DNA of 63,814 bases, filler included, from Thraustochytrium aureum (Eukaryota), in assembly GCA_012862495.1 (NCBI GenBank). It is 4 parts of 2 records of this genome, joined end to end, with 100 filler letters (N's around TTAATTAATTAA, not from the genome) between each part and the next. Parts side by side here need not be neighbours in the genome. Positions count along the whole stretch, not along the records: positions 28,504 to 57,545 come from BLSG01000197.1; 3 more parts are not named here. The stretch is one strand, 5' to 3'. Positions within the stretch are counted from its first letter, which is position 1. The number at the start of each line of letters is the position of its first letter. Shown here piece by piece: positions 28,294-61,746 of this stretch. The notes under the pieces were generated by a model. The model was not told the DNA's origin. It was given only the letters and a program-made list of their open reading frames with translations, and searched no databases. The position numbers and the translations under genes were made by a program.

Positions 28294-28447
28294 CTGGCCC
28301 TGCGGCGTCGCTAATCGCGACCGCCGCACCGCATTCGCCGACTGCCGGCTTGACGCCTGCCTTGAGCGACCTATCCGTTGAATTAACGTGTGTGGAGTGG
28401 GTTNNNNNNNNNNNNNNNNNNNNNNNNNNNNNNNNNNNNNNNNNNNN

Positions 28448-28459
28448 TTAATTAATTAA
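28448..28459. other. Artificial scaffold-joining linker (stop codons in all six frames)
   Basis: TTAATTAATTAA flanked on both sides by short equal N runs. Confidence 0.95.
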
Positions 28460-28503
28460 NNNNNNNNNNNNNNNNNNNNNNNNNNNNNNNNNNNNNNNNN
28501 NNN

Positions 28504-37552: not shown

Positions 37553-38593
37553 CTTGTTCTCACTCCTCGCCGTCTCGCGCGAACTGCGCACCGGCGCGCT
37601 TTTGGGTCGGCAAGTCGATCCGTGCCGCGACTGCTGCGCTCGCTGGCTCTGCCCTTCGCACTTGCGCACTTCGGATGCGGCTTCTGTTGCAGATCTGCTG
37701 CTCTGGTTGCTTGGCAGGGCCCGACTGTGCTGTGCAAGAGGGGACAAATAACAACACGTGTCGGAAGACTCGGNNNNNNNNNNNNNNNNNNNNNNNNNNN
37801 NNNNNNNNNNNNNNNNNNNNNNNNNNNNNNNNNNNNNNNNNNNNNNNNNNNNNNNNNNNNNNNNNNNNNNNNNNNNNNNNNNNNNNNNNNNNNNNNNNNN
37901 NNNNNNNNNNNNNNNNNNNNNNNNNNNNNNNNNNNNNNNNNNNNNNNNNNNNNNNNNNNNNNNNNNNNNNNNNNNNNNNNNNNNNNNNNNNNNNNNNNNN
38001 NNNNNNNNNNNNNNNNNNNNAACTGACCTGATGCTCGGCAAGCCAAAAGCACGCGGGACCAAGGCACGACGAAGAGCGTCGAGCAAGGCTGAAGCAAGCG
38101 CGTTGATCGGACTCGGCCTTCTGCACCGACATACAACGACGGCCTGCAGCCCGAACAGCCCGCTGCACGGACGACACGACCTCGCAGGATAGGACACGCA
38201 CATGCCCAATCCCAATCCCTTGAAACCTCACGATACTTGAATTTTGAAAAATCAAGAGTCTACCTCTGCGCGTCACGTAGTGCCCCTCGTGACGTGAGCG
38301 ACGGCGTCCCAGGTCCTGTGCCGCCCTGAGACGCTTCCGACGTGACATGGCCCTCTACATGACGCGTTCGTCTGGCGATGCACGGCGCAACGGACAAACG
38401 AGGGGAAAATCAAAGCAGTGCCCCTCCTCGCGTTGCGGCGGCCTCGCACCTGACGCACGAGCGTGTGCTGCAGGCGGCGCCGCGTGCGCTTGCGCGTGAG
38501 TCTGGACTTCACGGCACCCCGCGCCCTCGCGCTTCGCCTGCGGGGTGCGCCTTAGCTTGGTTTTTTAGAGATCGGAAGACAAGGTCAACTAGG

Positions 38594-40807
38594 ATGATAC
38601 AGGTCAAGGCACACGCGGCACCTGGAAAGGCTGTGCATGCAGGAAGGGAATGGCGCGTGCCGCCAAGCGTCCAGGCGAGTACGGAAGCCTTTGTGAGGTT
38701 TTCAAGTTGGTTTGACTCTGGAAACTGTGGCCGGGTGCAGCTTGTGGACGACTGGACTTTCGAGGTGACCACCGTGCCAGACTGCGCAGGCACGCCGCAC
38801 GAGACGCACAACAGGACGTGGTTCTACTTTGGCGTCAGCAATGTTCCGCGCGGACAGAAGGTTCGCCTCATCGTCCGTGACCTCAACAACCAGAGACAGC
38901 TATACGAGCACGGTTTCAAGCCCGTTACGCGGTCCCTCCCAAGCAGCCCGCACTGGGATCACATTCCCGGCGCCGTGCAGCTCGACGCACCAGACAAGAC
39001 GCGATGCTCCATTACCTTTTCGCACAAGTTTTTGCATGGCGAGAACGAGACGGTCTATTTCGCTTTCTGCCACCCGTTCCCTTTAGAGGAAGTCACGCGT
39101 CGTCTAGACGCGCTGGAGCGCCGGATCAACCGGGTGTCTGGGAACAACGATGAGGCAGCCTCCGACGAGAATCATGCGGGTCCCCGGCAGCGGGCACTGC
39201 CTGTGCCAGAGCCTGTCGACTCGTCGCGCGACGAACGCGAGGAGGCCGACGAGCTCCCAGAGGTGCCGGCCGTGCGCTCAAAAGGGGAGAAGGGAAGGCC
39301 GGGCACGCAAGGGCCAGACGTTGAGCGCAATAAAATATACCTGCATCGCGAGTGCCTAGCGCTCTCGCTTCAGGGCCGGCGCGTCGAGCTAGTGACGCTG
39401 ACGAGCGCTTCAGGGTGCGCGGGCCACGAAGTGGACGAAATGCGTGGCTATCTCAAGCAGCACCCTTACCTCTTCCCCGAGCGGAGCAGGGCCAGCAGCA
39501 AGTGCAAGCGGTTTCCTGGCCGCCCCGTCGTGTTTGTTAGCGCTCGGGTGCACCCTGGCGAGACGCCGGCGTCCTGGTCCTTTGAAGGCCTTCTCGAGTT
39601 CCTCGCCGACAGGACAGACCCTCGCGCCGCGCGCTTGCGAGAGCTGTACGTATTCAAGCTGGTCCCTGTGCTCAACCCAGATGGCGTCGCATTGGGCCAT
39701 TACCGAACCAACACTGTCGGCGACAACTTGAACAGGTTCTACCACGCCCCAGACCCGAGCAGGCACCCGTCGATAGCGGCCACCAAAGCCTTGATCTGCT
39801 ATTACGCCGTGTACGCGCAGCAGACGTCGCTGTATCTGTATTTGGACATGCATGCGCATGCGTCCAAGCGAGGCTGCTTCTTATTTGGCAATTACTCTGC
39901 AGACCTGGAGACGCAGACGGAAAACGTGCTCTACAGCCGTTTGGTCGCTCTCAGCACGCCTTACCTCGACACCAGCGCCTGCGACTTCTCAAGCAAAATA
40001 ATGACTGCGCGCGACAAGAAGGGCGAGTCGCGGGAGGGCTCTGGCCGCGTCGCCGTTTTTGCGGCCACTGGAGCTCTTCGCTGCTACACGCTCGAGTGCA
40101 ACTACNNNNNNNNNNNNNNNNNNNNNNNNNNNNNNNNNNNNNNNNNNNNNNNNNNNNNNNNNNNNNNNNNNNNNNNNNNNNNNNNNNNNNNNNNNNNNNN
40201 NNNNNNNNNNNNNNNNNNNNNNNNNNNNNNNNNNNNNNNNNNNNNNNNNNNNNNNNNNNNNNNNNNNNNNNNNNNNNNNNNNNNNNNNNNNNNNNNNNNN
40301 NNNNNNNNNNNNNNNNNNNNCCCGGGGGCGCGGCCGTGGGGGTCGGTCGCCGCCGCGGTTCAAGGGCTGAGGCCAAGGCTGCACGCGGGTCTCGCAGCAT
40401 CTCCGCGTTTGGGCGCGAGGGCGACTGCCGAGCACCTTCACCAGAGCGCACTTTCGGGGCTGCAGTCGCTCCCCACTCCGTAAAGTATACCCCTGCTGTG
40501 TGGCAGGACGTTGGCAAGGCGTGCGCGATCGCCCTCCTCGACCTTTCGGACGCCAACCCGTGGTCTCGGGTGCCCAAAGTCGTTGTACGGGAGCCTCGAC
40601 AGCGTGAGGCTGCATGTGCAAGCTAGCATCCGATCTGGTCGTGCAAACAGGAAGAAAAAGCAAACGGGTTCAAGTGCAGTGGGAAGGCAGGGCCGACCGA
40701 GCCTCGTTGCCGCGGTCTCGTCTCGGCCTTCATCGCGGCTTGCCGCTCCGATGCCGTCGCGTCGCCTCTTGAGCGACCCGGTCTTCGCCGGGCTTCCACT
40801 AATCTGA
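38594..40807 (+). CDS. Cytosolic carboxypeptidase (M14 tubulin deglutamylase, CCP5/AGBL5-like); gap; frameshift near 40578
   Basis: FDSGNC, RTWFYF, YFAFCHPF, ARVHPGETP, PVLNPDGV..GHYR, NLNR, YLDMHAHASKRGCF, YTLECNY, and post-gap YTPAVWQDVGKA.AIALLDL...NPWSR. Confidence 0.93.
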
Positions 40808-41280: not shown

Positions 41281-42471
41281 CTAGGTAGCCATGCGGGTCA
41301 TAAAGTTCGTGTCGGTGACCAGGAGGGAGCTGCTTCCGGCCGGGGTGGCGGCGCGCTTGCGCTGCTCGAGCACAACGCGCCTGCGGCCCTCAACGATGTT
41401 GGTCATATTGCGGTAAGCGTAGGCGACAACACCGAAAAGAATGTACAGCATGCACCACGGAAACACCAGAGTCATGACGAGGACGGCGGATAACTTGTCA
41501 GGCTCTGTAAACTCGCGCCAGCCCGCGGGGTGCACGACGCTGAGCAGCGTGTAGGTGGTTCCGAAGACTAAGAGGCACACAAGGCCGCCAATGACGCGTT
41601 CCGAGCTCCGCTTGATCGTCCCAATGGCAAGTCGGATCCGGTCTGCAACTGAGAGATCTGCGCCGTGAGCGGGCGTCGAGACTTGCGGTGCTAGCGAGGT
41701 GGCGCCCTCTGGGCCTGGGCCAAGCTTTGTCTCCACCATTTGGGAGAGCGACTCGGCAAGCAGCCCAACAAGGCGGGACCGCCCGTAGACGTACAGGAGG
41801 ATGAGGATGACGATGAACGGCGCCGCGGCCGGCGCGACGAGGTAAGACTTGCCAGAGACTGCCACTGCCGTCATGGCGATGCCAAACACGGCCGTAAAGC
41901 TGTAAACAGCGCGGCGGTACCGCCTCAGGTACGTGTGCTGCACTGTGGAGAGGCGGCGGATCGCTTCGCTGGTCTCGAGCCACATTACCGAGACGGTGGC
42001 AGACGCCATCATCGTCAAGACCTGCGTGCTCACCATGAATGCCTTGGTGACTCCTCCGAGCTCGTGATACCTCTCTCCGTCAATGTCGACCGTGTGGCGG
42101 TTCGGCGTCGTCGATTCGATCAGGTATACGGTCACCCAGCCCAGGTAGGCCGCTACTGCCAGGATGCTCTCTACTAGCGTGATGGAGGCGGCGTTGAGCT
42201 GGAATCCGTAGTGCACGTAGCGAAGAAGGACGCGGATCCCAGTGCTGAACACGTAAAGCGCGAGTGCGATGTTGATTGGGGACGTGACCACCAGCAAAAT
42301 CAGGTTGGGGCCCCATTTGTCGCATCCGCCCTTGATATCCCGCTGCCGCCCATACCACGTGTTGCAAAAGCACCCGCCGGCCTCGTCCCACGACACGTTC
42401 ACGTAGCACAGCTCGGTCACGTGGCAGTCAAAGTCGTTGACGCACGGCCCGCTCGACTGGTCCAGCGGCAT
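41281..42471 (-). CDS. Seven-transmembrane receptor-like protein with N-terminal Cys-rich EGF-like domain
   Basis: N-terminus CVNDFDC....C..........GCFCNTWYG......GC, then about seven hydrophobic helices with a long loop before the last two. Confidence 0.65.
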   Translation of the reverse strand: MPLDQSSGPCVNDFDCHVTELCYVNVSWDEAGGCFCNTWYGRQRDIKGGCDKWGPNLILLVVTSPINIALALYVFSTGIRVLLRYVHYGFQLNAASITLVESILAVAAYLGWVTVYLIESTTPNRHTVDIDGERYHELGGVTKAFMVSTQVLTMMASATVSVMWLETSEAIRRLSTVQHTYLRRYRRAVYSFTAVFGIAMTAVAVSGKSYLVAPAAAPFIVILILLYVYGRSRLVGLLAESLSQMVETKLGPGPEGATSLAPQVSTPAHGADLSVADRIRLAIGTIKRSSERVIGGLVCLLVFGTTYTLLSVVHPAGWREFTEPDKLSAVLVMTLVFPWCMLYILFGVVAYAYRNMTNIVEGRRRVVLEQRKRAATPAGSSSLLVTDTNFMTRMAT

Positions 42472-44497: not shown

Positions 44498-47400
44498 CTA
44501 CGGCTTCTCGGAGAGAACCGACTCGGCATCTGCAACGAGCTTCTGGGTGTCATGCTCGTCCAGTTGATCGATTTCCTCCAGCTCGTCGCTCACAAGCTTC
44601 ATAAACTGCTCGGTGCTCTGGCGGCCCCGGGCCCGAGCCTGCAGGGTACCAACACCCATGTCCATAACCATAACCTCTGCCTCCTTCTCGAGCGAGGCGA
44701 GCGGAGCAATCGACTCCAACACCGAATCATAGGCGCGGCGGGGCCTCGGCGCTCTTTGCTCCGCAACAGCCTCGTGCGTCAAACTGCTGACCCCATCTGA
44801 CTCGTCCCGGTGGTGCGCCAAGCTGCTGACCCCATCCGACTCGTCGCGTTGCGTCGTCCCAGCGCCTGCGCCAGGCGCCGGCAACTCGCTCTCGGTCGTG
44901 AGCTGCGTGTTCGAAGTAGACATTCCCGTGCCGCTTGCCCCGTGTGTAGGCTCACTAGTAGTCGCTTCATCCCCCCAAAGCTGCGAACGCACAGAGAGCC
45001 GTGGCGCATTCGCAACGTCTGCAGAGTGACCAGACCTCCCAAGGCTCGCATCAAGAGCAGATTTGTTCGCTGCCCGCTTGGCAGCCATGAGCGCGACAAA
45101 CTCAGCGCTCGCCAGGAATCGCGGCTTTACCACATGCTCAAGCCTATGGTAAATGTCGTTCTTCGCCTCGCTGAAGAGGTCTGGCTCAGGGTCCTCCATG
45201 CCCGTGGCGATCTCAGCCTCCAGCTCCGCGCCAAAGTCTAGCCAGTCCTTGCCTTTGACGGCGGAGTCGACGTACTTGTGGAAAAGCTCTTTCGCTCGCA
45301 CCGCGGTTGGATCTGCCTCGAACGCACAGCTGTCCTGCCAAAACCGAAGGTCGCCCGCGTTGGCACCATCGCGGCGCTTTTGCACGAATTCCATGACATG
45401 CTGGAACCCGAGCTCGTCCTGCAGAAGCGACTCAAAGTTGTCAAAGTACTTGCCAATGCGCTGCGAGAACTGTGCAAGCACGTTGTACTGATGCATGTCC
45501 AGAACGAAGAGCTCGCAGTGCGACATGCACTTGGCCGAGTCAATCCCGCTTGACTTTGCAATAACGCCGCGCCGAATCACCTTCGAATGCCCAGAGCTCG
45601 AGGCAACGACGACCGAACCGCTCACAAGAAAGTAAATTCGGTCCGCAAAATCGCTCGCGGGGAACCTCCGGAAACCGATGTTTGCAAAGCTTGCATGAAA
45701 TAAACTGAGCCCAGGGTCGCCCAGATTTGCGGCTCGGATGAAGGCAAGCGAGGTGTCGTCGTGCGTACCAGCCGGCGACAGCTCGTCCTTCCTAGCTTGA
45801 ATTTTGAACGAGTTGGCGCCGGCTTGGGACCCGGACCTGACCGCAGCATAAATACGCGACCGAGCACCCTTACCTGATCGCGAGGACGAACCCCACTTTG
45901 CGTTCCCAGAGGCTGAAAGCGTGTTCCGAATCCCTCGAAACTTCGATTTAAGCGACGAGTCGAGGCCTTCGGTCGGAACTCCTGTCTCGGCATGCGTGCG
46001 ACCCCGCTGCGTTGGCGAGGTTGGCGCTGGCGCCATCGACTCGGTTTCGTACGAACCGCTCAAAAGCATGTGGCCCTTTGGCAGCACGACCGGGCTCAAC
46101 ATAAGCGCAAGCGTTTGAAGCGCACCGAGTTGGAACCCGGCAAACATCGGATGAGCGGCGAGGTTTGGGACGCTGCCGAGGGCCGCATGAGCGACTATTT
46201 CCGAGCGAAAGTAGGGCGGCAGGTTGGCCTCTCGCAGTATCTCCGTCTCGTTTTGGTCGTTGAGCGTCTCGTGCTGAAACCTGACAAAGTTGAGCACCGT
46301 GCGCTTGATGTGCGGCTCGATGTGGCGCGTTTTCAGGTATTGTGTCAGCGAGATGCGCTTCCGCTTGGAGTTGCTCGCCTTTGTGTCCTGGTTTGCGAGG
46401 ACGTTGCTCACGGTCGCCGTAACGCCGGCGTCGCAGAGAAACGCGCCGAAAACCATGCACAGGACAGCAAAGACGGGCGCATCCACAGGCACGTTCCCGT
46501 ACCCGACCGTTGAGATCGTGTAGACGGCCCAGTACAGGCAGAACAAGTAGGCTTCCACGGGTGAGTAACCGGGTGGCAAGAGCGCCAAGTAGCGCACGCT
46601 CAAGGTGGCCTTCACGCATGCGATGATGTGCACGCTGATGAAACCTGTGAAGGCGAGCCGCGAGATCTGCTTTGCGCCAGAGCCCATCACAATGCCACAC
46701 TCGGCAGCGAATTGCTGGAGAGAGGAGACCAGCCCGCTAAGACGCAGCCCAGACAACAGCCGCGGGAGCCGCGCAATAGCCACAACCCAAGGCCAGGGCC
46801 CGACGCCATCGATCCAAAGCGCGCCGACGCTCTCTAGCACGCCAAGCCGGACGGCATAGTCCAGCGGGAGCAGCGTGGCGACATCCACCAAAAGGCCGTG
46901 GCGCAAGTACCAGCGCGACACCTCGCGCCGCGTCCATAGCGTCACGCCTGCGTGGCTTGCAGTAAACACGACGGCCCGGAACACTGCATCAGCGATGAGC
47001 ACAATGTCTGTTAGAATGTCCAAAGCCAGGAAAGTCGACTCTGAACTGGCGAGCTCGACCTTGACAAAGCTCATTGCGACAACGCCCGGCCGCAGAAACG
47101 TCGCGCGGAACGGGATTGAAACGAATAGGTACACAATGCCGAGGAGCAGAACGCAGTCCCAGACTCGCCTCTCCCTGGCAGTGTGCGCCAAGAGCTTCTC
47201 GCCTGTGCACAGGCCAAGCTCCTTCTTCTCGGTTTCGACGTCGAAAAACTTGTTCACCTTGGCTTTCCCGAGGTTTCGCGTGAACGCTTCCAGGGTGCCG
47301 CGTTTGCGAATTTCTGGCTCGAGCTTCACGATGTCTTGTCGAAACCGAGCTTCGAGGCCGGGGCGCTCTTGAAGGTACAAGTCAAAGTCGACGCGGTGCA

Positions 47401-50400
47401 GGACGAACACGTCACAAATCTCACGAGCGCGAGCGATGCATTCTGTGGGCTCCGCAAAGAAGAACTGAACCTCGCCAAACATGTCCCCAGGCCCAAACGA
47501 AGTGTAGACCTGCGATCCGTCGCGCGAGACGTACTCGACAGACCCCGAAGTGAGAAAGTACCACCGATAAATGAGCTCGTCTTGCAAAAAGATGACCGTG
47601 TCCTCCGCAAAAAGCGCTGGGCGGAGCAAGTCGAGCAAATCCTCCACGCGGTCCCAGTGCGCAAACAGCGGCGCGCGCGTGAGAAGGCGCCGTCCGAGCC
47701 GCTCTGCCTTGATCTCCCGACGAAGCGAGATCGGCAGCTTGTCCAGGATCCAGGACTCTTCCACGCCTTTTTGTCTGACCCAGAGCAAGTTGTAGTAGCC
47801 AATGATGCGGCCCGAGAGGCTGCTTGGAAGCTTGCGAGACCTGCAGTAGAGGTTCATGCTGTCCACCTTGCGCTGGAACATGATCGAGCTGATGTCAGAG
47901 TGCGCGATGATCTCCTCCAGGTTGTTGAGTAGAAGCGCGTACAGAAAGCCTCCAGCAATGAGTAGCGCAATCGTGTACAGGATCTCGCTGTCCGCGGCGG
48001 GAGTGTAGTCGCCGTATCCGACTGTCGTGAGGGACGCTACCGTCCAGTAAACAGACCTCGCGTACGCGCGGTGCGCGGGCACAAAAGTCACATTGCTCGA
48101 GTCGAAGACCTCCGAGCCATCCTCAGGCAGCACCGCCCCGGTCACGGGAACCAAAAGCGCAAAGTCTTCGCTGTGCGTCGCCCAAGTGCGAGGCAGGCCG
48201 GACGCGATGTTCCAGCGCGCCAGACCAAAGAACAAGCAGCCCCCACAGTGAGCGAACAGCAGGATCAGGAGAAGCAGGCTAATCAGTGTTGTCACGTCGC
48301 GACGCATTGGGACCATGCACTTGACCATCTCGAGGTACTCGGTCAGCCTGTGCATGCGCACCATTGTCACCATGCGGAGGACGCCGTACACTGTGACGCT
48401 GAGGTGCGGGAAGCCAACGGCCAGCCCCACGCACAGGGAGACTGGCAGCGACGCGACCACGTCCCACTTTAGCTCTGCGCGACGGTACAGTCGGGAGAAG
48501 GCCTCTCGACGTCCTTCGATCACGCCATGCTCTTCGCGAGCAAAGTAGCGAAGTCTGAACAGAATGTCGCAGATACCTGCGGCGTCCGCGATAAAGTCGA
48601 TGACTAAAAACAACGGGTAGTCCGCTACCGTCCCATACCCGTGCCCGGCGCGAAATGTTGCGAGGTACACGTTGCCCAAGGTCAGCGCAAAGACGAGCGA
48701 GTGCCAAGTCAGCTGAGCTTTTGAGTCTGGCAGCAGCACGTGCTTGTCGAGCTGCAGCCCCGTGGTGGAGCCAACTTGTTCTTCGTCCATCATCAGCTTG
48801 TTCAACTTGGCATTCTTGAGGTTTTTGGCAATGTTGCCCGCGTTCTCTGATGTCGCAACCGCGCGAGAGTACACGACATCCGCGACGCTGTTTAGGTACA
48901 GTGAATCAGAACGGTCGCGCAACTCGGGTTTCGCGCAGTTTGATCTCCTTTCCTTTTTTCCAGGCGCATGCTCAGGCTGCGGAGCGTCGATCCTGAGGGC
49001 CTCGTTGTTTTGCTCTAGCGAGGTGGCCGTTGTGATCGTGTCGCACGGACTTGGCAGCACTTTGAGCTCAGTTGGCTTGCAGCCGAGCACCGAATGCAAA
49101 GACGATTGTGTCAGGACCCACACTTCGCAAAACTCGAGCGCGCGGAGCTTTAGCTCTTGACGCTCAGGCTCGAACAAGGCGATCTGCGCAAACCCGTTGC
49201 CCGCCTCCAGCTTTCCAATCGCGTTTCCGGTCGACGAGAGGATCTCTGCAACGCCAACCTCGAGGTATATCAGGGCGTCTGTGACGCCCCGGTCGTGGGC
49301 GTCAACGGAGCCGTTTTTCTGGCCACCACTGTACCCGCATGTGATGTAACGTCCAGGAGAGAACACCTCCTTTTGCATCTGAGCTGCGAGCTTGTCCAGA
49401 ATCGATTGATCCACGTCGTGAAAGAGGACGGACCGTCGCAAGAAGCGGTCGCTGATGATCTCGCGGCGCAGCAGCTCCTGCAGCGATGCCGGGAAAAACT
49501 TGCGCAAGGTCGTCACTTCGTTGAGGCGGATGTGATGGACGGTGGCGTACTCCAGGTAGGCGTTGCAGTCGGCGACCACGCGGCGCGGCAGCGCCAAGTT
49601 TTCCAGGTAGTGCCGACAGCAATCAGTAAAGTGCTCGATGGTTGGCGCCCCCCCGTCGCCGTTGCGAGTGATTGCAGCGAGAATCGACACGAAGCCGGCA
49701 TACATGGTGGTGCCAAAGACCATTACCACCATCGCAAACGCCCGCGACATGGAACTAGATGGCACGATATCTCCAAACCCCACCGTCGTGACAGTAACCA
49801 GAGCCCAATAGAGAGACCTCGCGTAGCTCGTAGCCAAAGACTGGCCTTTGTCAAACTGGACTGTCGCATTGGTCCCTTCGATGCTGATCCACATGCACGT
49901 GATCCAGTGCGCGGAGATGGCCACTGCCATTGAGATCTGCACAGCGACCACCTGCAAGGTCCCGAGGCGCCGGAACCACGAGATGCGGTTGCCCACGCGC
50001 AGAACCTCGTCGCTAACTAGAGGGTACAGCAGCACAATGAAGGGGAACCGGATCAGCATGTACTCATCCAAGTTGTCCGCTCGCGACGCGACAAAGGAGC
50101 CGAGGCTCAGCAGAAGCAGCGCCGCGTGCAACATCGTGTTTGCGAGCCCCCGTGACCTCAAGTTCTCTGTGACAGCCAGCCTCTTTGCTGAATTTCCTTG
50201 CGTTGTCGAGGTGGCGTCGCTGCCGGCCCCTTGCCGCGCTTCGGCCCTCGGTTCTGATGCAGAGCAATGGCCGAGCTCCGAAATCTCGGCAGGAAAAGCA
50301 CGCTCGAGAAGATGATCGCATCGCACAAGGTGTCCACGAGCCAGAGCGCCTGAACATCTATCTTGGTAGTGTATGAGCTTCCCAAAGCAAGGTTCAGGGG

Positions 50401-53248
50401 CGGCGCCACGCAAAAGTATGCATGAGCCAGGAACGAGAGCAACTCCCACACTGCTTTCACTTTCGGAATCTCGAGCGCAGACGTGACCCTGGACCCCCAC
50501 AGATTCAGGTTCCGCTCCAGGGTAGCCAAGAGCCGGAACGCAATGGTCGATCCATTTCCAGCGTGGAGTCCTCGAAGAAAGCTCGGCTGCCGGTCCAACG
50601 AGCGAGTCAGCCGAACGGTTCGAGCCCTGTTGCGCTCGTCCCATGATTGGACCGTGGCTAAGACCCCTGGGTCGTTCGTGAGATACTTGGCACAAGAAAC
50701 GTCGTTGAGGTTCGCAATGGAGATGAGCTTTGGAACAGGGTCCAGAATACGATTGAGGACCAACCCTCGGACAGCCGAACGCCGCCGCCTCCGCCAGGCA
50801 GTACTTGAGCCACTTGGTGCAGCCTCAAGCTCTTCGACCGAATTGGCCTTTCCGCTCGACCCGTTCGCCGCTAAAGAATTTGTGGATGACCTGTTGCGAA
50901 TCAGGTTCAATAATGATGACTGTCGCAAGAACCCCTTGTGCGGCTCTGACTCGTTTTGCAGCGCCGCTTTGACGTCTGAAATGAATTCGCCCGTCGCAAT
51001 AGATATCCCGCGCCCGCGGTCAGAATGATGAGTCACCGAGCTGGCCGATTCGTCAGTCGCCAGGGCACCTTTGACGGAGCCAGTTTGACCTGCATCCTCG
51101 TCGTCACCGCGAACATCGCTGCTCTCGTCGTCACCGCTTTTAATGGCACTCTGGCTTTCACTACCGTCCCCAGCACGTCGAAAAGAGCTGTCGTGGCTGG
51201 CGGCGGCGTTGTCCCCCTGCGACGCAAGTTGGTGGTCTTCGTCGCTCGAGCCGCGAAAGATCTGCACAGCGACTTGGAGCACCTCGGCGTCGAGCCGCTG
51301 GAGCTCACAGACCTTTGCTGCGACCACCGAGTTGCCATGGACCGCGCATGCTGAAAATAGCATCTCCTCGCCATAAAAGCCCGCGTCTCCAGGCTCGATG
51401 ACCTCAATAACGGTGCTCGCCCGAAACGTCTTGGCAGACTTTGATCTCCGGAGTCGAGCAGTGAAAGTGGTCGCGCGCCTCGGTCCCATCTGCTTGTTCA
51501 CCTCCATGACGGACAAGCGCTTTCTGGACGTGGGCTCTCGCTTGATGCTGAACCCATCGTCGTCACCGGTGGACAACACCTCGAGGCGACCCTCCGAAAG
51601 AAACCACATTGCATTCACAGGCTCGCCGCGAACGCACAAGTACTCGCCAAAGTTGACGATATCAGGCTGGAGCGCCGAGACAACGGCGTCCACGAATACG
51701 AGGTCGCGGCCCTGGAAGAGTTTGATCCGAAGCAGCGCGTTGCGCCGCCCGCTCGTGATCTCCTCGCGCAGGCTTGATGGCAGGGCGCCAAGGATTGAGC
51801 TCTCCAGTTTTCCGCGTTGGCGCTCCCACAGGAAAGCAAAATACTCGCGGACTTTGTGCCGCTTGGCTGCCGAGATATTCCGTTCGCTCATGTACGCTGT
51901 CATCAGCTCCATCTTCTCCTTGAAGTGTGCAGACGTGACGTCAAGATTCTTCAGGAGCGACGTCATGTTTGCAATCACCAATGCGTGAACCGCGGTGCCG
52001 CAGAGCACGCAAAAGAGAACCAGTGTGACCTGCGACATGGACGCTGGCACGACGTCCCCATAGCCGACGGTGAACATGGTTTGCAGCGCAAAGTACTGCG
52101 CCGTTGTCAGGTCCTTGAAAAGCGCACTGGCCCCGTAAACGAAGGGATGGGTGCGATTGAGCATGCTGACTTGCAGCTCGGCAGGAGCGCTGGCTCCATC
52201 GATCGTGGCTGCGTTGTAGCTTGTGAGGTAAAAGGCCCCTGCCATCAGGTAGGCCACGTACACAATTTGCGACAAGAGGCGCAGCATCCGGAACACGTTG
52301 CTGCTTGACACTCGCACGAGCTTGTCGACGCCCGCCATGGCTCCAAGGTAGAACGTCCGGGACAGGAGGCCCGCGCCAGCAAGGCGGATCAACTTCCAAG
52401 AACGCTTGAAGAGTTTCTGTCCAGACCAAGGCCTATCGAAGCGAACGGCTGGGCGCACATTATCTGGCAAAGCACATGGAAAGACAGCACATGGGTGAAG
52501 CCTGCTGCGCCCATCTTGCATCGCCGAGGGAGTTGGAAGGTCGAGAGGAGGATCAGCACCGCGAACGAGGCGTCCAGGAAGACCGAGCAAATTAACAGGC
52601 CGTGCCGAGACAGATTGTCTGGCTGCCGTGCTGTCGGGAAAAATATAAGAAGAGGGCTCAGAATGAGCGCCACCACGCATACCGCCAAAAAGTACGCATT
52701 CACCACGTACCATGTGGCTGATCCCTCTTGGATTTGCAGGCACGACGATCCACCGCGCTCTGCTTCCACAACGCGATCCAGTGCCGCCCTGGAATCCTCA
52801 ACAAGAACGAGATTTGCCGGAACGACAGTGCCGCGCCGCGATGGCCCTCCTCTAAGGATTCGCATCATCCTACCGGAGCTCGAGGCCGAGGTGGACGCCG
52901 TTGAGCCTTGCGCATACCCGTCGATGTCGGGGGCGTTGACCAGGTCGGTGAGCGTGGAGAGTCTGTGCACCGCAGCTCTTTGACGCATTTCGGCTGTGCG
53001 CGAGTCGCCGCTGCGCAAATAGCTCCAAACCTTCGAGAGGACGCCTGGATCCCATCCTTTTACTGCCGATTTCGGCGAGCTGCTGAAAAGACGCTCTGCA
53101 GCCGGCCGGCCGCTGCCGAGGCCTTGTTTGTCGATGTTGAGGAGTTTGGAGTGCCGGTTTTGAACCTGTTGTGGTCCCCTAACTTGTACCCTGGCACGTC
53201 GATCTGGACGGCATGCTTTGGCATTTTATTTAGAAAGACCTTCGCCGC
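44498..53248 (-). CDS. Single-chain four-repeat K+-selective CNG-type channel (CNGK-like) with C-terminal RGS domain; frameshifts near 53110, 52420 and 50230
   Basis: Four pore loops: MFTVGYGD (~52055-52078), TTVGFGD (~49770), TTVGYGD (~48010), STVGYGN (~46495). Each has upstream TM helices and a downstream C-linker plus CNBD fold. RGS-like domain at ~45098-45436. Start is ATG 53224 or lies in the gap. Confidence 0.9.
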
Positions 53249-54116: not shown

Positions 54117-55137
54117 TGCTTCCGTAGCGGATCGCGAGAGCATCTTCTTGGACGTAGGGCGCTCCATCAGCGGGTTTTGGAACTTTGGCGGCGTGCGGAG
54201 CTTCCGAAACTATGTGTCGTCTGCCTCGCTGCCAAAGCTACGAGCCTCGAACGCGAGGCCAAACAGCAATCCATCCTCTGCGCTCTCCGGCCCGCCGACT
54301 CGCAACTCGGCGGCCTCTTCAGGCCTGTGGAGCGAAAACCCGAAGAGCGTCGCCTCGGCAGTCCGCCCACAAACCGTCGAAGTCGATATCGAAGGCGGGG
54401 TGCGAGGAGCTGAGCAAAAGGGAGGCGGGGTCCGTCCGCTCAAGAGGCTCTCAACCTCCAGCCCAGACGCTTCTGCGCAATCGTCGCGCTCTCGCAAGCG
54501 CCTGGGCTTTGTCCTTGTTGCCTTGGCGGCGATCGCGGCAGTCGTAGTGCTCTTTAACGCAAGGCCAGGGAACGAGGAAAACGGCAACCTGGTGGACTCG
54601 GGAGAGAGTGGGGCCACCAAACCCGACGAGGGACAAGTTAGCCCACCAGTAAATGACACGATTGGAGATGGCGACAATGGCGGCGGCGACAACGGCGGCG
54701 GCGGCGACAACGGCGGCGGCAGTGAACCCTCTGGCGTGCTGTTCCGCGGCCTTTTCTTCGACTCGGCTCAGCAGCGCGTGGTTGGAAGCGGGCGGACCGC
54801 GTACCGAGAAACAGAAGCGCAGATCTTTCTCCACATTCAAGCCAAGCCGATCCCGCTCAAGGTCTCTGAAGTCCGCGGCTTCGTTCTATACGACCCAGAG
54901 GATTACCAGCCTGTGGGCGAGATCACCGCGACACCTCGAGACCCCCTCGCTGGAGATCCCAGCGTTCAAGTGTTCAGCTTGGCGGCCACAGCCCGCAAAT
55001 CGCACGAGGCGGACGAGTTCTTGGAGGCGCTCGAGAGCTGCGAACATGCCGAGGAATTCGCGATATTCATCGAGGCAACGCTCACAGACGCCTCCGTCGT
55101 CTCCGTCTTGCTTACTCTGCCGGCGTGCTCGTCTTGA
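54117..55137 (+). CDS. Hypothetical single-pass (type II) membrane protein, 5' partial
   Basis: Open frame with RKR followed by LGFVLVALAAIAAVVVLF, a Gly/Asp/Asn linker and a globular-looking C-terminal domain. Confidence 0.6.
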
Positions 55138-57545: not shown

Positions 57546-57589
57546 NNNNNNNNNNNNNNNNNNNNNNNNNNNNNNNNNNNNNNNNNNNN

Positions 57590-57601
57590 TTAATTAATTA
57601 A
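57590..57601. other. Artificial scaffold-joining linker
   Basis: TTAATTAATTAA between N runs. Confidence 0.95.
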
Positions 57602-57645
57602 NNNNNNNNNNNNNNNNNNNNNNNNNNNNNNNNNNNNNNNNNNNN

Positions 57646-58256
57646 CTTGGGCAGGCTGAGCGCGTGTTGAGGAGGGCCGGCTGTATCTGGGACGCGTCTA
57701 TGCCGGAGGAGGTGCACGTTGTGATTAACTATCTCATCTGGGCGCGGATCGGGCAAGCCTTGGCGCTCTTGATATCCTGGGCGTGCCGGCTTCGGCGATC
57801 GGGGAGATTAACGCGTTCTTTTCGGTGACCTCGGTGCCAGGCGGGTCGAGCCTTGTCTGGATTTTGCTCGTTGGTTTGTTCGGCAATTTCTATGTCGTTG
57901 TGCAGGGCGTGCTGGCTTTCCGCTCGCTTGACGCGAGCGATGGGCTGGTTGTGGCCTCAGCACGGTGCGGAGCGATCGGCGACCTCATTATGGTATTTGC
58001 CTCGCTGTCTTCCTTCAGTTCCGTGGCCACGCTCACGATCGGCGCAAACGGCGCAGGAACTGCTGGTGCGTCGGCGGCCTTTATGTTTTTCGCCTGGCTT
58101 GGATTCCTCTACTCGACTCCGCTTTCTATAATAGTGCTCAAAGACCGCGCGCATCTTTTCAGGCGCCCCGCGGACTCTCACGATGTCAGCTCGGCGAATG
58201 CGGGCGCGCAGGACGACGCTGTGGATCGGGCCGATCCGAGCCTTGTTAGCGTGTAG
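57646..58256 (+). CDS. Hypothetical multi-pass membrane protein, 5' partial
   Basis: Three to four hydrophobic helices in the 57783-58256 frame, ending in TAG. Confidence 0.5.
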
Positions 58257-60030: not shown

Positions 60031-60074
60031 NNNNNNNNNNNNNNNNNNNNNNNNNNNNNNNNNNNNNNNNNNNN

Positions 60075-60086
60075 TTAATTAATTAA
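60075..60086. other. Artificial scaffold-joining linker
   Basis: TTAATTAATTAA between N runs. Confidence 0.95.
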
Positions 60087-61746
60087 NNNNNNNNNNNNNN
60101 NNNNNNNNNNNNNNNNNNNNNNNNNNNNNNCCCGCGATTGCGCAGGACGAGGTTGCCGCCGGACGAGGTTTCGCTTCGCACGCTTTGGGCGCGCAAAACA
60201 AGCGTACGTGCTGGGTGCGCTGCGCTGGAGCGCCGACAGCCCCTGCAATCGCAAAACCAGAGTTCGGACCTCTTGCAGACTGCCAGGCGTCGCGCTTTGC
60301 CTCCTGCAGCTTGCGTCCTTCTGGCGGAGAATGACTCAGGCTTGGCTGGGTTCCTCCCGCCTGACCGCCTGCGCTGCGGAGCCTTGGCAGAGCCCCGACG
60401 ATGCCAGCCCACGATTCGCGTTGGGCTTTGTCGAGGCGAACGACGCGGCGCCGAAAGCTCCACATCGCATTTGAGCGACGCTAGCCCAGGCAGTAGGTAA
60501 CCTTGGGGCCTCGATGCAAATTGGCTGCCCCCGATGCTCAAACGATACAAGTGGCTGGCGACAGGGCGTGAGACTTGGTCTGTCTTAGCTGCGCGCTCCG
60601 CGATCGCTTCTCGCTCGTTCCTGTTGCTGTACGTTCCGGGGAAACGCTCGCCTGCCTGCGGAGAGAGTGGCCGGAGCAGGCGAGTGGCCGGAGCAGGCGT
60701 CGATTCCATTGCGTCTGGGAGGCGAAATTCTTGGCGTCGATCAATTTGCGCCAGAGCCAGACCTCGTCGAGATGTGGAGTCTTGCAAAGTGCGTCCCGTG
60801 GCAGGCGTCAAGTCAAATCCAAGGCGCAGAGCACACTACGTGCCTTCTTACTCCAAAGCGAGCGGGAGCTGTAAAACGCTCGCGGCGGCAGACGTGGCCA
60901 TTTGTGATTGACCCCCCACCCTCTCCCCCCCTGCCTAAATGCCTTCCCACGCCAATCAAAACTATCCAAATACGCGAAAGAAACCGCCGCGTCCACAACA
61001 CCCGAGCACGGACCTCGCCGTCTGTCATTCAGCGCGCCCGTCAGCGTCAGCGCGCCCGCCGGCGAATCCAGTTGCGCAGGCAAAGCAGGCATCGCTGACC
61101 CCCTCCCGTCCGTTTTCCTTCGACTAATCCAGCTAGAGTTCATTTTCGTATTCCAGGAGAAGCGTGCGTGGAGGGGCCGTCCTGTACAACGATGGACAAC
61201 GGATGGCGTTACCCGGACCGCAGGAGCCACGGGGCTGCGATGGCCGCCATCGCCCAAATGCGCACAAAACCAACGCGTCCCGAAGCCCGCCACCCCTTTA
61301 AAAACTAAAACAAAACGTCCGTGGCGTGAAACCCAGTGCGCGGAAAAGGGAAGAAATCAAGCTGGCCGCCTCCAGGTGCCGGTGCTGGGCGCCGCTCAGG
61401 CGCGCGCGCCCTGCGCCGTTGCGTTGCCAGCTGGGCCGCCTCGTCGGGGTCGATTCTTCTCGGCGGGTTGCCCGTCTCGGGCACAACAAGCAGGGTCAGA
61501 AAGCCAAAATTGTAGGACGAAAGCCCGCAGCGATCAAGACCGACAAAATACGAGCTTGCACCGCACGAGTTTAGCCGAAGGGCTGCGCCGCGTCGGCCTC
61601 CCGCCCTTCGTCTGGCCTCCCACAGGCGGACAACACACAACGCGCAACGGATCTATTGCAATAGGCGAGCAGAGTCGTTCTTGCACGCCGGTGCATTCGG
61701 CAGGGCGCGTCGCGCGGCTGGCGCCGGGCAGGGCCGGCTGGGCGGA

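What the first reader, a model, noticed from the sequence alone, without database searches (positions are those of the whole stretch)
44498..53248. Four-repeat CNGK-type K+ channel fused to an RGS domain
Seen: one gene carries four voltage-sensor/pore/CNBD repeats with GYG/GFG filters. It ends in a domain (~45098-45436) reading FESLLQDELGFQHVMEFV...LRFWQDSCAF...AKELFHKYVD...LDF...DLFSEAKNDIYHRLEHVVKPRFLASAEF, which follows the RGS pattern (L...G...F..FL...L.FW...A..IY..YI...F..A...I...M.....PRFL.S..Y). Known: four-repeat CNGK channels drive sperm chemosensation in sea urchin and fish, and RGS domains bind activated G-alpha. Inference: this may be a pseudo-tetrameric channel wired directly to heterotrimeric G-protein signalling, for example in zoospore chemotaxis. 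I do not know of a described CNGK-RGS fusion. The RGS domain is in the same uninterrupted ORF as the pores of repeats 2-4, so frameshift repair is not needed to see the fusion. The RGS helix-4 E-N-L motif appears altered (ANAGDL), so it may bind G-alpha without GAP activity.
Basis: partly seen in the sequence, partly recalled or inferred. Interest (0 to 1): 0.88.

Follow-up and report, generated by a model that had tools for sequence, protein, structure and literature searches.

The report
Potassium channel with built-in G-protein sensor
A protist gene (likely from a thraustochytrid) encodes a four-part potassium channel that ends in an RGS domain of the G-protein-regulator family; several relatives share the fusion, and it likely lets activated G proteins act on the channel directly, though binding and gating are untested.

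Summary
The fusion is real. One intron-free minus-strand gene (about 2,900 aa) has four 6TM-pore-CNBD repeats with TVG[YF]G filters and a C-terminal RGS domain at 45098-45436 (Pfam 34.3 bits, cut-off 23.9; predicted fold 1.9 A from RGS4). Two frame breaks look like assembly slips, since contigs of a public run carry the missing base; the third is inferred only. Relatives share the fusion: Hondaea fermentalgiana, a 2,863-aa single-ORF protein, and distant metagenomic proteins.

Two corrections. (1) It is not cyclic-nucleotide-gated by sequence: no CNBD has the phosphate-binding Arg in place, and it groups with diatom and pelagophyte four-repeat channels, not fish CNGK. Those carry a C2 domain in CNBD4 instead. 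(2) All three critical GAP contacts are replaced here, yet helices 7-9 are 83-91% identical in three close relatives; two distant lineages keep all three contacts. The RGS sits where the CNBD4 C-helix would be.

Best reading (0.4): a K+ channel with a non-catalytic G-alpha docking site. No G-alpha, transcript or binding was tested. No description found in 10 literature searches; one key survey was unreadable. The scan noted other membrane-protein-RGS fusions on other genomes, not this one.

The parts
44498..53224 (-). Whole gene, about 2,909 aa if it starts at ATG 53224 (2,830 aa from ATG 52988); no intron needed; stop at 44498-44500
   Evidence: Read through with X at the breaks it has no stop and aligns to P0001 in one segment, residues 2-2702 against 67-2715, 36% identity
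53090..53095 (-). Probable frame break 1, beside a run of four T; start codon therefore uncertain
   Evidence: Homology only: the frame after it matches P0001 at E 4e-7, the frame before it gives a 6-residue match at E 0.33; no contig covers it
52392..52393 (-). Frame break 2 (one base missing in the window, just before S4 of repeat 1)
   Evidence: X1 contig of 887 bases, depth 7, has one extra base here
50248..50249 (-). Frame break 3 (one base missing, S2-S3 loop of repeat 2)
   Evidence: X1 contig, depth 3.5, has one extra base here; a single contig under depth 5, backed by collinearity with P0001
51252..52720 (-). Repeat 1: voltage-sensor-like domain, pore (TVGYG at 52071), C-linker, CNBD-like domain 1 without the binding Arg
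49081..50480 (-). Repeat 2: pore TVGFG at 49786; one Arg in S4; CNBD-like domain 2 with Gly-Glu replaced by Ala-Gln
47250..48740 (-). Repeat 3: pore TVGYG at 48025; best-kept CNBD, but SthK's Arg-Thr is Thr-Glu here (Thr at 47444-47446)
   Evidence: Alignment to SthK, E 2.5e-39
45470..47190 (-). Repeat 4: pore TVGYG at 46510; degenerate CNBD-like domain with a disordered insert of about 115 aa (about 45710-46054); no ordinary C-helix
   Evidence: (pLDDT under 50 at model residues 116-230)
45098..45436 (-). RGS domain, starting about 20 residues after the last beta strand of CNBD4; GAP contacts N88/N128/D163 read D/W/V; R167 kept; helices 7-9 strongly conserved in close relatives
44501..45097 (-). 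Low-complexity acidic tail, not conserved, with a short duplicated peptide near 44780-44850
   Evidence: Seen in the translation; differs among relatives

Best explanation
This is a single-chain four-repeat channel, predicted to be K+-selective and likely not opened by cyclic nucleotides, whose C-terminal RGS domain likely serves as a non-catalytic docking site for activated G-alpha, so that G-protein activation would change K+ flow directly. Shown: the four GYG/GFG pores, the RGS fold, the conserved fusion, the loss of the binding Arg from the CNBDs, the replacement of all three GAP contacts, strong conservation of RGS helices 7-9, and the RGS following straight on the hinge helix of CNBD4 where the C-helix normally lies. 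Inferred: G-alpha-GTP docks on the remodelled helix 7-8 face; docking moves the CNBD4 hinge as a nucleotide moves the C-helix in CNG/HCN channels; the C-linker ring passes this to the gate; membrane potential, and perhaps swimming, changes. The family ancestor probably had a GAP-competent RGS that both sensed and ended the signal.
For: RGS above the Pfam cut-off and RGS fold. Fusion in one ORF with four pores in P0001 (2,863 aa) and P0041 (2,336 aa), and behind the same repeats in Hondaea P0003, P0002, P0065 and P0031. RGS-bearing repeat-3 rows form one group (91/91, not starred; SH-aLRT 97 in the quick tree), so the fusion looks old and kept. The spacing from CNBD4 beta-8 to RGS helix 1 varies by only a few residues in 8 of 8 rows; in the model of compact relative P0039 the hinge helix (97-111) runs straight into RGS helix 1. 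No other gating ligand is evident: binding Arg absent, S4 segments with about 1-3 Arg. Helices 7-9 are 19, 21 and 20 of 23 identical in P0001, P0003 and P0027, against about 1 in 3 for the rest of the RGS. Distant members keep Asn/Asn/Asp, tying the domain's origin to G-alpha. In Phytophthora, G-alpha controls zoospore swimming and chemotaxis (PMC9694693, passages).
Against: No G-alpha of this organism was available, so neither its presence nor binding was tested. The replaced residues are themselves G-alpha contacts (PMC8252600, passages), so their loss may mean loss of binding as well as of catalysis. Helices 8-9 also belong to the subdomain nearest the channel, so their conservation may reflect packing on the channel. 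In P0002 the same stretch is only 9 of 23 identical and Pfam does not report its RGS. Sister channels exist with a C2 domain or with nothing at this place, so the channel does not need an RGS. The P0039 model has pTM 0.54, so a fixed CNBD-RGS orientation is not predicted. No RNA data.
Confidence: 0.4

Rival explanations
1. The RGS fold has been repurposed in this lineage. It no longer binds G-alpha and acts as a structural cap on the CNBD ring or binds another partner or lipid, much as PAS docks on the CNBHD of KCNH channels (recalled).
For: 0 of 3 critical contacts kept; charge changes on the contact face (Leu to Arg, Asp to Val, Asn to Asp) are shared by the close relatives. Some RGS domains have lost GAP activity and act as scaffolds (PMC3971589, passages). 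The RGS of P0002 has drifted further.
Against: The most conserved stretch includes the helix 7-8 face that contacts G-alpha in solved complexes, and R167 is kept in 8 of 8 rows. A purely structural cap would not need this face conserved.
Confidence: 0.3
2. The channel is a membrane-anchored GAP: voltage, ions or an unknown ligand set RGS activity, so the signal runs from channel to G protein, as in plant 7TM-RGS receptors.
For: P0029/P0039 and P0031 keep all three contacts and P0041 keeps two; the P0039 model matches RGS4 at 1.0 A (1agr_H). Transmembrane RGS proteins are common in heterokonts (PMC3971589, supplement). This is likely the better reading for the distant members.
Against: The window's protein and its closest relatives have lost all three contacts. 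It would need a co-evolved G-alpha or a non-standard GAP mechanism. The S4 segments are charge-poor.
Confidence: 0.2
3. It is an ordinary cyclic-nucleotide-gated CNGK channel, and the RGS is a passenger or localisation tag.
For: Same repeat layout and filters as CNGK (PMC4749565, passages). CNBD3 keeps Phe-Gly-Glu. CNBD2 has an Arg one place off the usual position, and CNBD1 of the three closest relatives has basic residues near it.
Against: CNBD3 has Thr-Glu for Arg-Thr. The CNBD2 Arg is not shared by the three closest relatives and Gly-Glu is lost there. The window's CNBD1 lacks the basic residues. CNBD4 has no C-helix. Even zebrafish CNGK, with canonical CNBDs, is gated by pH.
Confidence: 0.07
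4. The locus is a pseudogene or an assembly chimera.
For: Three frame breaks in the window; no RNA holder listed; no laid contig spans the whole gene; one nonsense change in a single low-depth contig of X4.
Against: Two breaks are mended in X1 contigs. 15 of 25 listed differences in the folded core are silent against 25% expected, p 2e-4. The same architecture stands in single ORFs of other organisms.
Confidence: 0.03

Closest known systems
CNGK channels of animal sperm and choanoflagellates (ApCNGK, DrCNGK; PMC4749565, PMC7576140)
   Same: Four 6TM-CNBD repeats in one chain; GYG/GFG K+ filters; few S4 charges.
   Different: C-terminal RGS; no CNBD with the binding Arg in place; CNBD4 lacks its C-helix; repeat 3 does not group with two fish CNGK-type proteins (AU p 0.034, borderline).
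Uncharacterised four-repeat CNBD channels of ochrophytes (Skeletonema P0004, Aureococcus P0007, L001, L008, P0066)
   Same: Nearest sister group in repeats 3 and 4 (99/97; SH-aLRT 96 and 97); also lack the binding Arg.
   Different: They carry a C2 domain inside CNBD4 (Pfam above cut-off in P0007 and L001, weak in P0066, not detected in P0004 or L008) and no RGS.
Hondaea fermentalgiana GBG26762.1 / A0A2R5G6T0, auto-named 'Potassium channel AKT2' (P0003)
   Same: Orthologue: 53-61% identity in repeats 3-4, 47% in the RGS; PF00615 is already on its record.
   Different: The name is an automatic label; its model lacks most of repeat 1 and part of repeat 3; I found no paper on it.
7TM-RGS receptors (AtRGS1 type) and cNMP_binding-RGS architectures (PMC3971589)
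   Same: RGS joined to a membrane protein, or directly behind a cNMP-binding domain.
   Different: The membrane part here is an ion pore. No Ion_trans-RGS architecture is in that survey's list, whose species include no labyrinthulomycete. The GAP contacts are lost here.
KCNH (EAG/ERG) and plant AKT/KAT channels
   Same: K+ channels whose CNBD-like domain is not opened by cyclic nucleotides (KCNH; AKT/KAT recalled).
   Different: Single-repeat tetramers, strongly voltage-gated, no RGS.

Membership tests
CNGK | Four 6TM-CNBD repeats in one chain | tested here: met
   single-ORF relatives P0001 and P0041
CNGK | GYG/GFG potassium filter in all four pores | tested here: met
   TVGYG, TVGFG, TVGYG, TVGYG
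CNGK | At least one CNBD with an intact phosphate-binding cassette (Gly-Glu ... Arg) | tested here: not met
   0 of 4; CNBD3 has Thr-Glu for SthK's Arg-Thr
CNGK | Groups with holozoan CNGK repeats | tested here: inconclusive
   Best trees place it elsewhere and AU p is 0.034, but only two fish proteins stood for CNGK, the region is 172 columns, and the group was named after a first tree
CNGK | K+ current gated by cGMP or pH | not testable with these tools
   needs electrophysiology
RGS domain (PF00615) | Profile match above the curated cut-off | tested here: met
   34.3 and 40.2 bits against 23.9
RGS domain (PF00615) | RGS-box helical fold | tested here: met
   top Foldseek hits are all RGS; 1.9 A to RGS4
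Canonical GAP-active RGS | Asn88, Asn128 and Asp163 contacts of RGS4 (PMC8252600) | tested here: not met
   D/W/V in the window. Placed through printed alignments to RGS1, RGS12 and RGS16; putting RGS4 numbers on those motifs is from recall
Canonical GAP-active RGS | Binds G-alpha-GDP-AlF4 and speeds GTP hydrolysis | not testable with these tools
Voltage-gated K+ channels | S4 with five or more regularly spaced Arg/Lys (threshold recalled) | tested here: not met
   about 1-2, 1, 3 and 3 Arg in repeats 1-4, read from the alignment

The most novel reading that the evidence does not exclude
A pore-forming K+ channel subunit gated by G-alpha-GTP through its own RGS domain, grafted in place of the CNBD C-helix. 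It belongs to an undescribed stramenopile family of four-repeat channels, separate from sperm CNGK, in which repeat 4 is a swappable input socket: RGS in labyrinthulomycetes and kin, C2 in diatoms and pelagophytes.
Probability: 0.35. Interest if true: 0.9.

Novelty: new variant of a known kind. Interest (0 to 1): 0.72.

Why it matters
G proteins usually reach K+ channels through G-beta-gamma (GIRK) or second messengers, with RGS as a separate protein (recalled). A channel with its own RGS would be a one-protein link between G-alpha and membrane potential, and a candidate effector in stramenopiles, where G-alpha steers zoospore swimming. The family gives a natural series: GAP-type RGS, remodelled RGS, C2, and no module on one channel body. 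Hondaea is a named organism with a public genome, so binding, GAP and patch-clamp tests are direct. It also extends four-repeat CNBD channels beyond animals and choanoflagellates, the only groups with them in PMC7576140 (parts 1-3 of 5 read).

Tried and rejected
No whole genome is held, so G-alpha, G-beta and paralogues could not be sought; none of 35 window ORFs scanned was a G protein. No RNA holder listed among 5 runs; this says nothing on expression. Word-index search with the RGS alone: 0 of 483 candidates. Metagenome DNA scan: 79 loci from 3 of 64 parts, none with an RGS by my own profile; two were four-repeat sister channels. Complex prediction of CNBD4 with RGS: no verdict (scores 0.00, 0.39, 0.30; my alignment was not used), no evidence either way. 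VIA-align fold searches were not run because the machine was busy. Atlas search with repeat 4 plus RGS returned only generic channel clusters. Introns as the cause of the breaks: rejected for two breaks, since single bases mend them. Third break: no cover. The Aurantiochytrium zoospore proteome paper (PMC12221091) had no hit for G protein, RGS or channel terms in its text or 4 supplements. Anantharaman et al. 2011 (Gene), the survey most likely to list such a fusion, is not held. In the tree, row P0066 was a repeat 4 mislabelled as repeat 3; long-branch or redundant proteins (18 ids) were left out. Look-ups in earlier scan findings by sequence, place and narrower words were blank.
Full report
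WHAT IS THERE. The window is gene-dense eukaryotic DNA with housekeeping neighbours such as ribosomal S3, SPT16, CCDC22 and legumain. On the minus strand, 44498-53224 holds one gene in four frame pieces. The last piece covers pores 2-4 and the RGS without a stop. Pfam gives Ion_trans, cNMP_binding and RGS (34.3 bits, cut-off 23.9). The filters are TVGYG, TVGFG, TVGYG and TVGYG. The RGS is confirmed by PDB sequence hits (RGS12, E 1.3e-6) and by fold: pLDDT 77-93 over the domain, 1.9 A to RGS4.

THE FRAME BREAKS. Contigs of run X1 carry one extra base behind 50248 and behind 52392, and each restores the frame. X1 may be the source sample, so this shows a slip or allele in the window rather than independent conservation. 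With X at these breaks the protein aligns to P0001 in one segment over 2,700 residues. A third break near 53091 is suggested only by weak homology and is not covered; with it the protein is 2,909 aa. Of the 40 differences listed (13 more were not shown), 38 lie in the ORF. In the folded core 15 of 25 are silent against 25% expected (p 2e-4); in linkers and tail 4 of 13. One core change is a stop in a single contig of depth 2.5. The gene looks functional.

THE FUSION IS CONSERVED. Of 26 relatives found with the channel part, 2 carry PF00615 on record: P0001 (Logan, 2,863 aa, four pores and RGS in one ORF) and P0003 (Hondaea fermentalgiana, auto-named AKT2). P0002, filed under Durusdinium trenchii, has a drifted RGS that Pfam misses; it groups with Hondaea, so I infer a labyrinthulomycete contig in that assembly. 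A search with the CNBD4 end plus RGS gave 14 hits: 6 with the same junction (P0002, P0003, P0027, P0029, P0030, P0031) and 8 multi-RGS proteins without channel domains. P0030's cluster holds a full-length form, P0041 (2,336 aa; four pores and RGS), and P0065 is a further member (1 of 4 hits). The taxa of these distant members are unknown. The window's organism is likely a thraustochytrid or kin, by closeness to Hondaea (53-61% in repeats 3-4).

IT IS NOT A SPERM CNGK. In a quick tree of 119 repeats the RGS-bearing rows group in repeats 2, 3 and 4 (SH-aLRT 91, 97, 90). They sit inside 18-row clades (96, 97) with Skeletonema and Aureococcus channels, and the fish proteins fall outside. A careful tree of 18 repeat-3 rows gives 91/91 for the RGS group and 99/97 for the wider clade; joining the RGS group to the fish rows is rejected at p 0.034. 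This is borderline: two fish proteins only, 172 columns, 18 proteins left out, one row mislabelled, and the group named after the first tree. The ochrophyte sisters have a C2 domain inserted in CNBD4 (above cut-off in P0007 and L001, weak in P0066, not detected by Pfam in P0004 or L008). A third branch (P0010, P0016, P0017) has neither module.

GATING FEATURES. Against SthK, CNBD3 reads Thr-Glu where SthK has Arg-Thr. CNBD1 has no Arg there. CNBD2 has lost Gly-Glu and has an Arg one place off that its three closest relatives lack. CNBD4 is degenerate. CNBD1 of the three closest relatives does have basic residues nearby, so some phosphate-bearing ligand is not excluded for them. That Arg is described as crucial for nucleotide binding (PMC4749565, passages). 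The S4 segments hold about 1-3 Arg. Neither cyclic nucleotide nor strong voltage gating is predicted, which leaves the input open.

THE RGS. It starts about 20 residues after the last strand of CNBD4, with nearly the same spacing in 8 of 8 aligned rows. In SthK this is where the C-helix lies, and in the P0039 model the hinge helix runs into RGS helix 1 (pTM 0.54, so the orientation is not fixed). The three critical GAP contacts of RGS4 are Asn88, Asn128 and Asp163 (PMC8252600, passages); placing those numbers on the aligned motifs is partly from recall. The window has Asp, Trp and Val. P0001, P0003 and P0027 also have Asp and Val, with a variable residue at 128. P0029/P0039 and P0031 keep all three, and P0041 keeps two. 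Helices 7-9 are 19-21 of 23 identical in those three close relatives against about one in three elsewhere in the domain, but only 9 of 23 in P0002. So the contact face was remodelled and then held.

MECHANISM. I commit to a K+ channel with a non-catalytic G-alpha docking site that acts on the gate through the CNBD4 hinge (0.4). Rivals: a repurposed domain that no longer binds G-alpha (0.3); a channel-tethered GAP (0.2, likelier for the distant members); ordinary cyclic-nucleotide gating (0.07); pseudogene or chimera (0.03). Architecture, fold, conservation and residue changes are shown. K+ selectivity follows from the filter. G-alpha binding, direction of signalling and any zoospore role are inferred; the zoospore link rests on Phytophthora G-alpha work (PMC9694693, passages).

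NOVELTY. Ten literature searches listed no paper on such a fusion; the two aimed most directly at it returned none. De Mendoza 2014 (passages, and part 2 of supplementary file 3; file 1 not searchable) lists RGS architectures including cNMP_binding-RGS but no ion channel, and samples no labyrinthulomycete. Pozdnyakov 2020 (parts 1-3 of 5) reports four-repeat CNBD channels only in animals and choanoflagellates. Anantharaman 2011 could not be read, and subscription journals are not searched. The domain combination already sits unremarked on the Hondaea record. Earlier scan notes report Amt-RGS and voltage-sensor-RGS fusions on other genomes (not checked). Verdict: new variant of a known kind, interest 0.72.

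Noticed in passing
window 41284-42471, minus strand: 396-aa membrane protein 2 kb downstream on the same strand: Cys-rich N-terminus and six hydrophobic peaks above threshold, possibly a 7TM protein; no Pfam hit; atlas look-alikes are unnamed eukaryotic clusters (0.95), with weak TOM1/GPR137-type leads under 0.9. A possible receptor; no link to the channel was tested.
   Followed up: partly
P0007, P0004, P0066, L001:2681-9172, L008:3665-10150: Ochrophyte-type four-repeat K+ channels with a C2 or C2-like domain inserted inside CNBD4, a candidate Ca2+/lipid input on the same channel family.
   Followed up: partly
P0005, P0006, P0013, P0014 (incl. Chrysophaeum); P0011, P0022 (oomycetes); P0012: Further four-repeat CNBD channels outside the RGS/C2 clade, so four-repeat forms occur in several stramenopile lineages.
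   Followed up: partly
P0002 (CAK8985757.1): Filed under Durusdinium trenchii on a 10-kb contig but groups with Hondaea and the window in all four repeats; likely from a co-cultured labyrinthulomycete.
   Followed up: no
P0028, P0032-P0038: Proteins made of 2-5 tandem RGS domains with no other domain.
   Followed up: no
window 28404-28503, 57546-57645, 60031-60130: Three identical masking patterns: 44 N, 12 bases, 44 N; other N runs fall mostly between genes.
   Followed up: no
window 54118-55134 (+) and 57732-58256 (+): A single-pass membrane protein with a Gly/Asp/Asn repeat and a small multi-pass membrane ORF, neither with a Pfam hit.
   Followed up: no
window 38363-40483 (+): Cytosolic carboxypeptidase (tubulin deglutamylase type, label recalled), a gene kind linked to flagella.
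   Followed up: no
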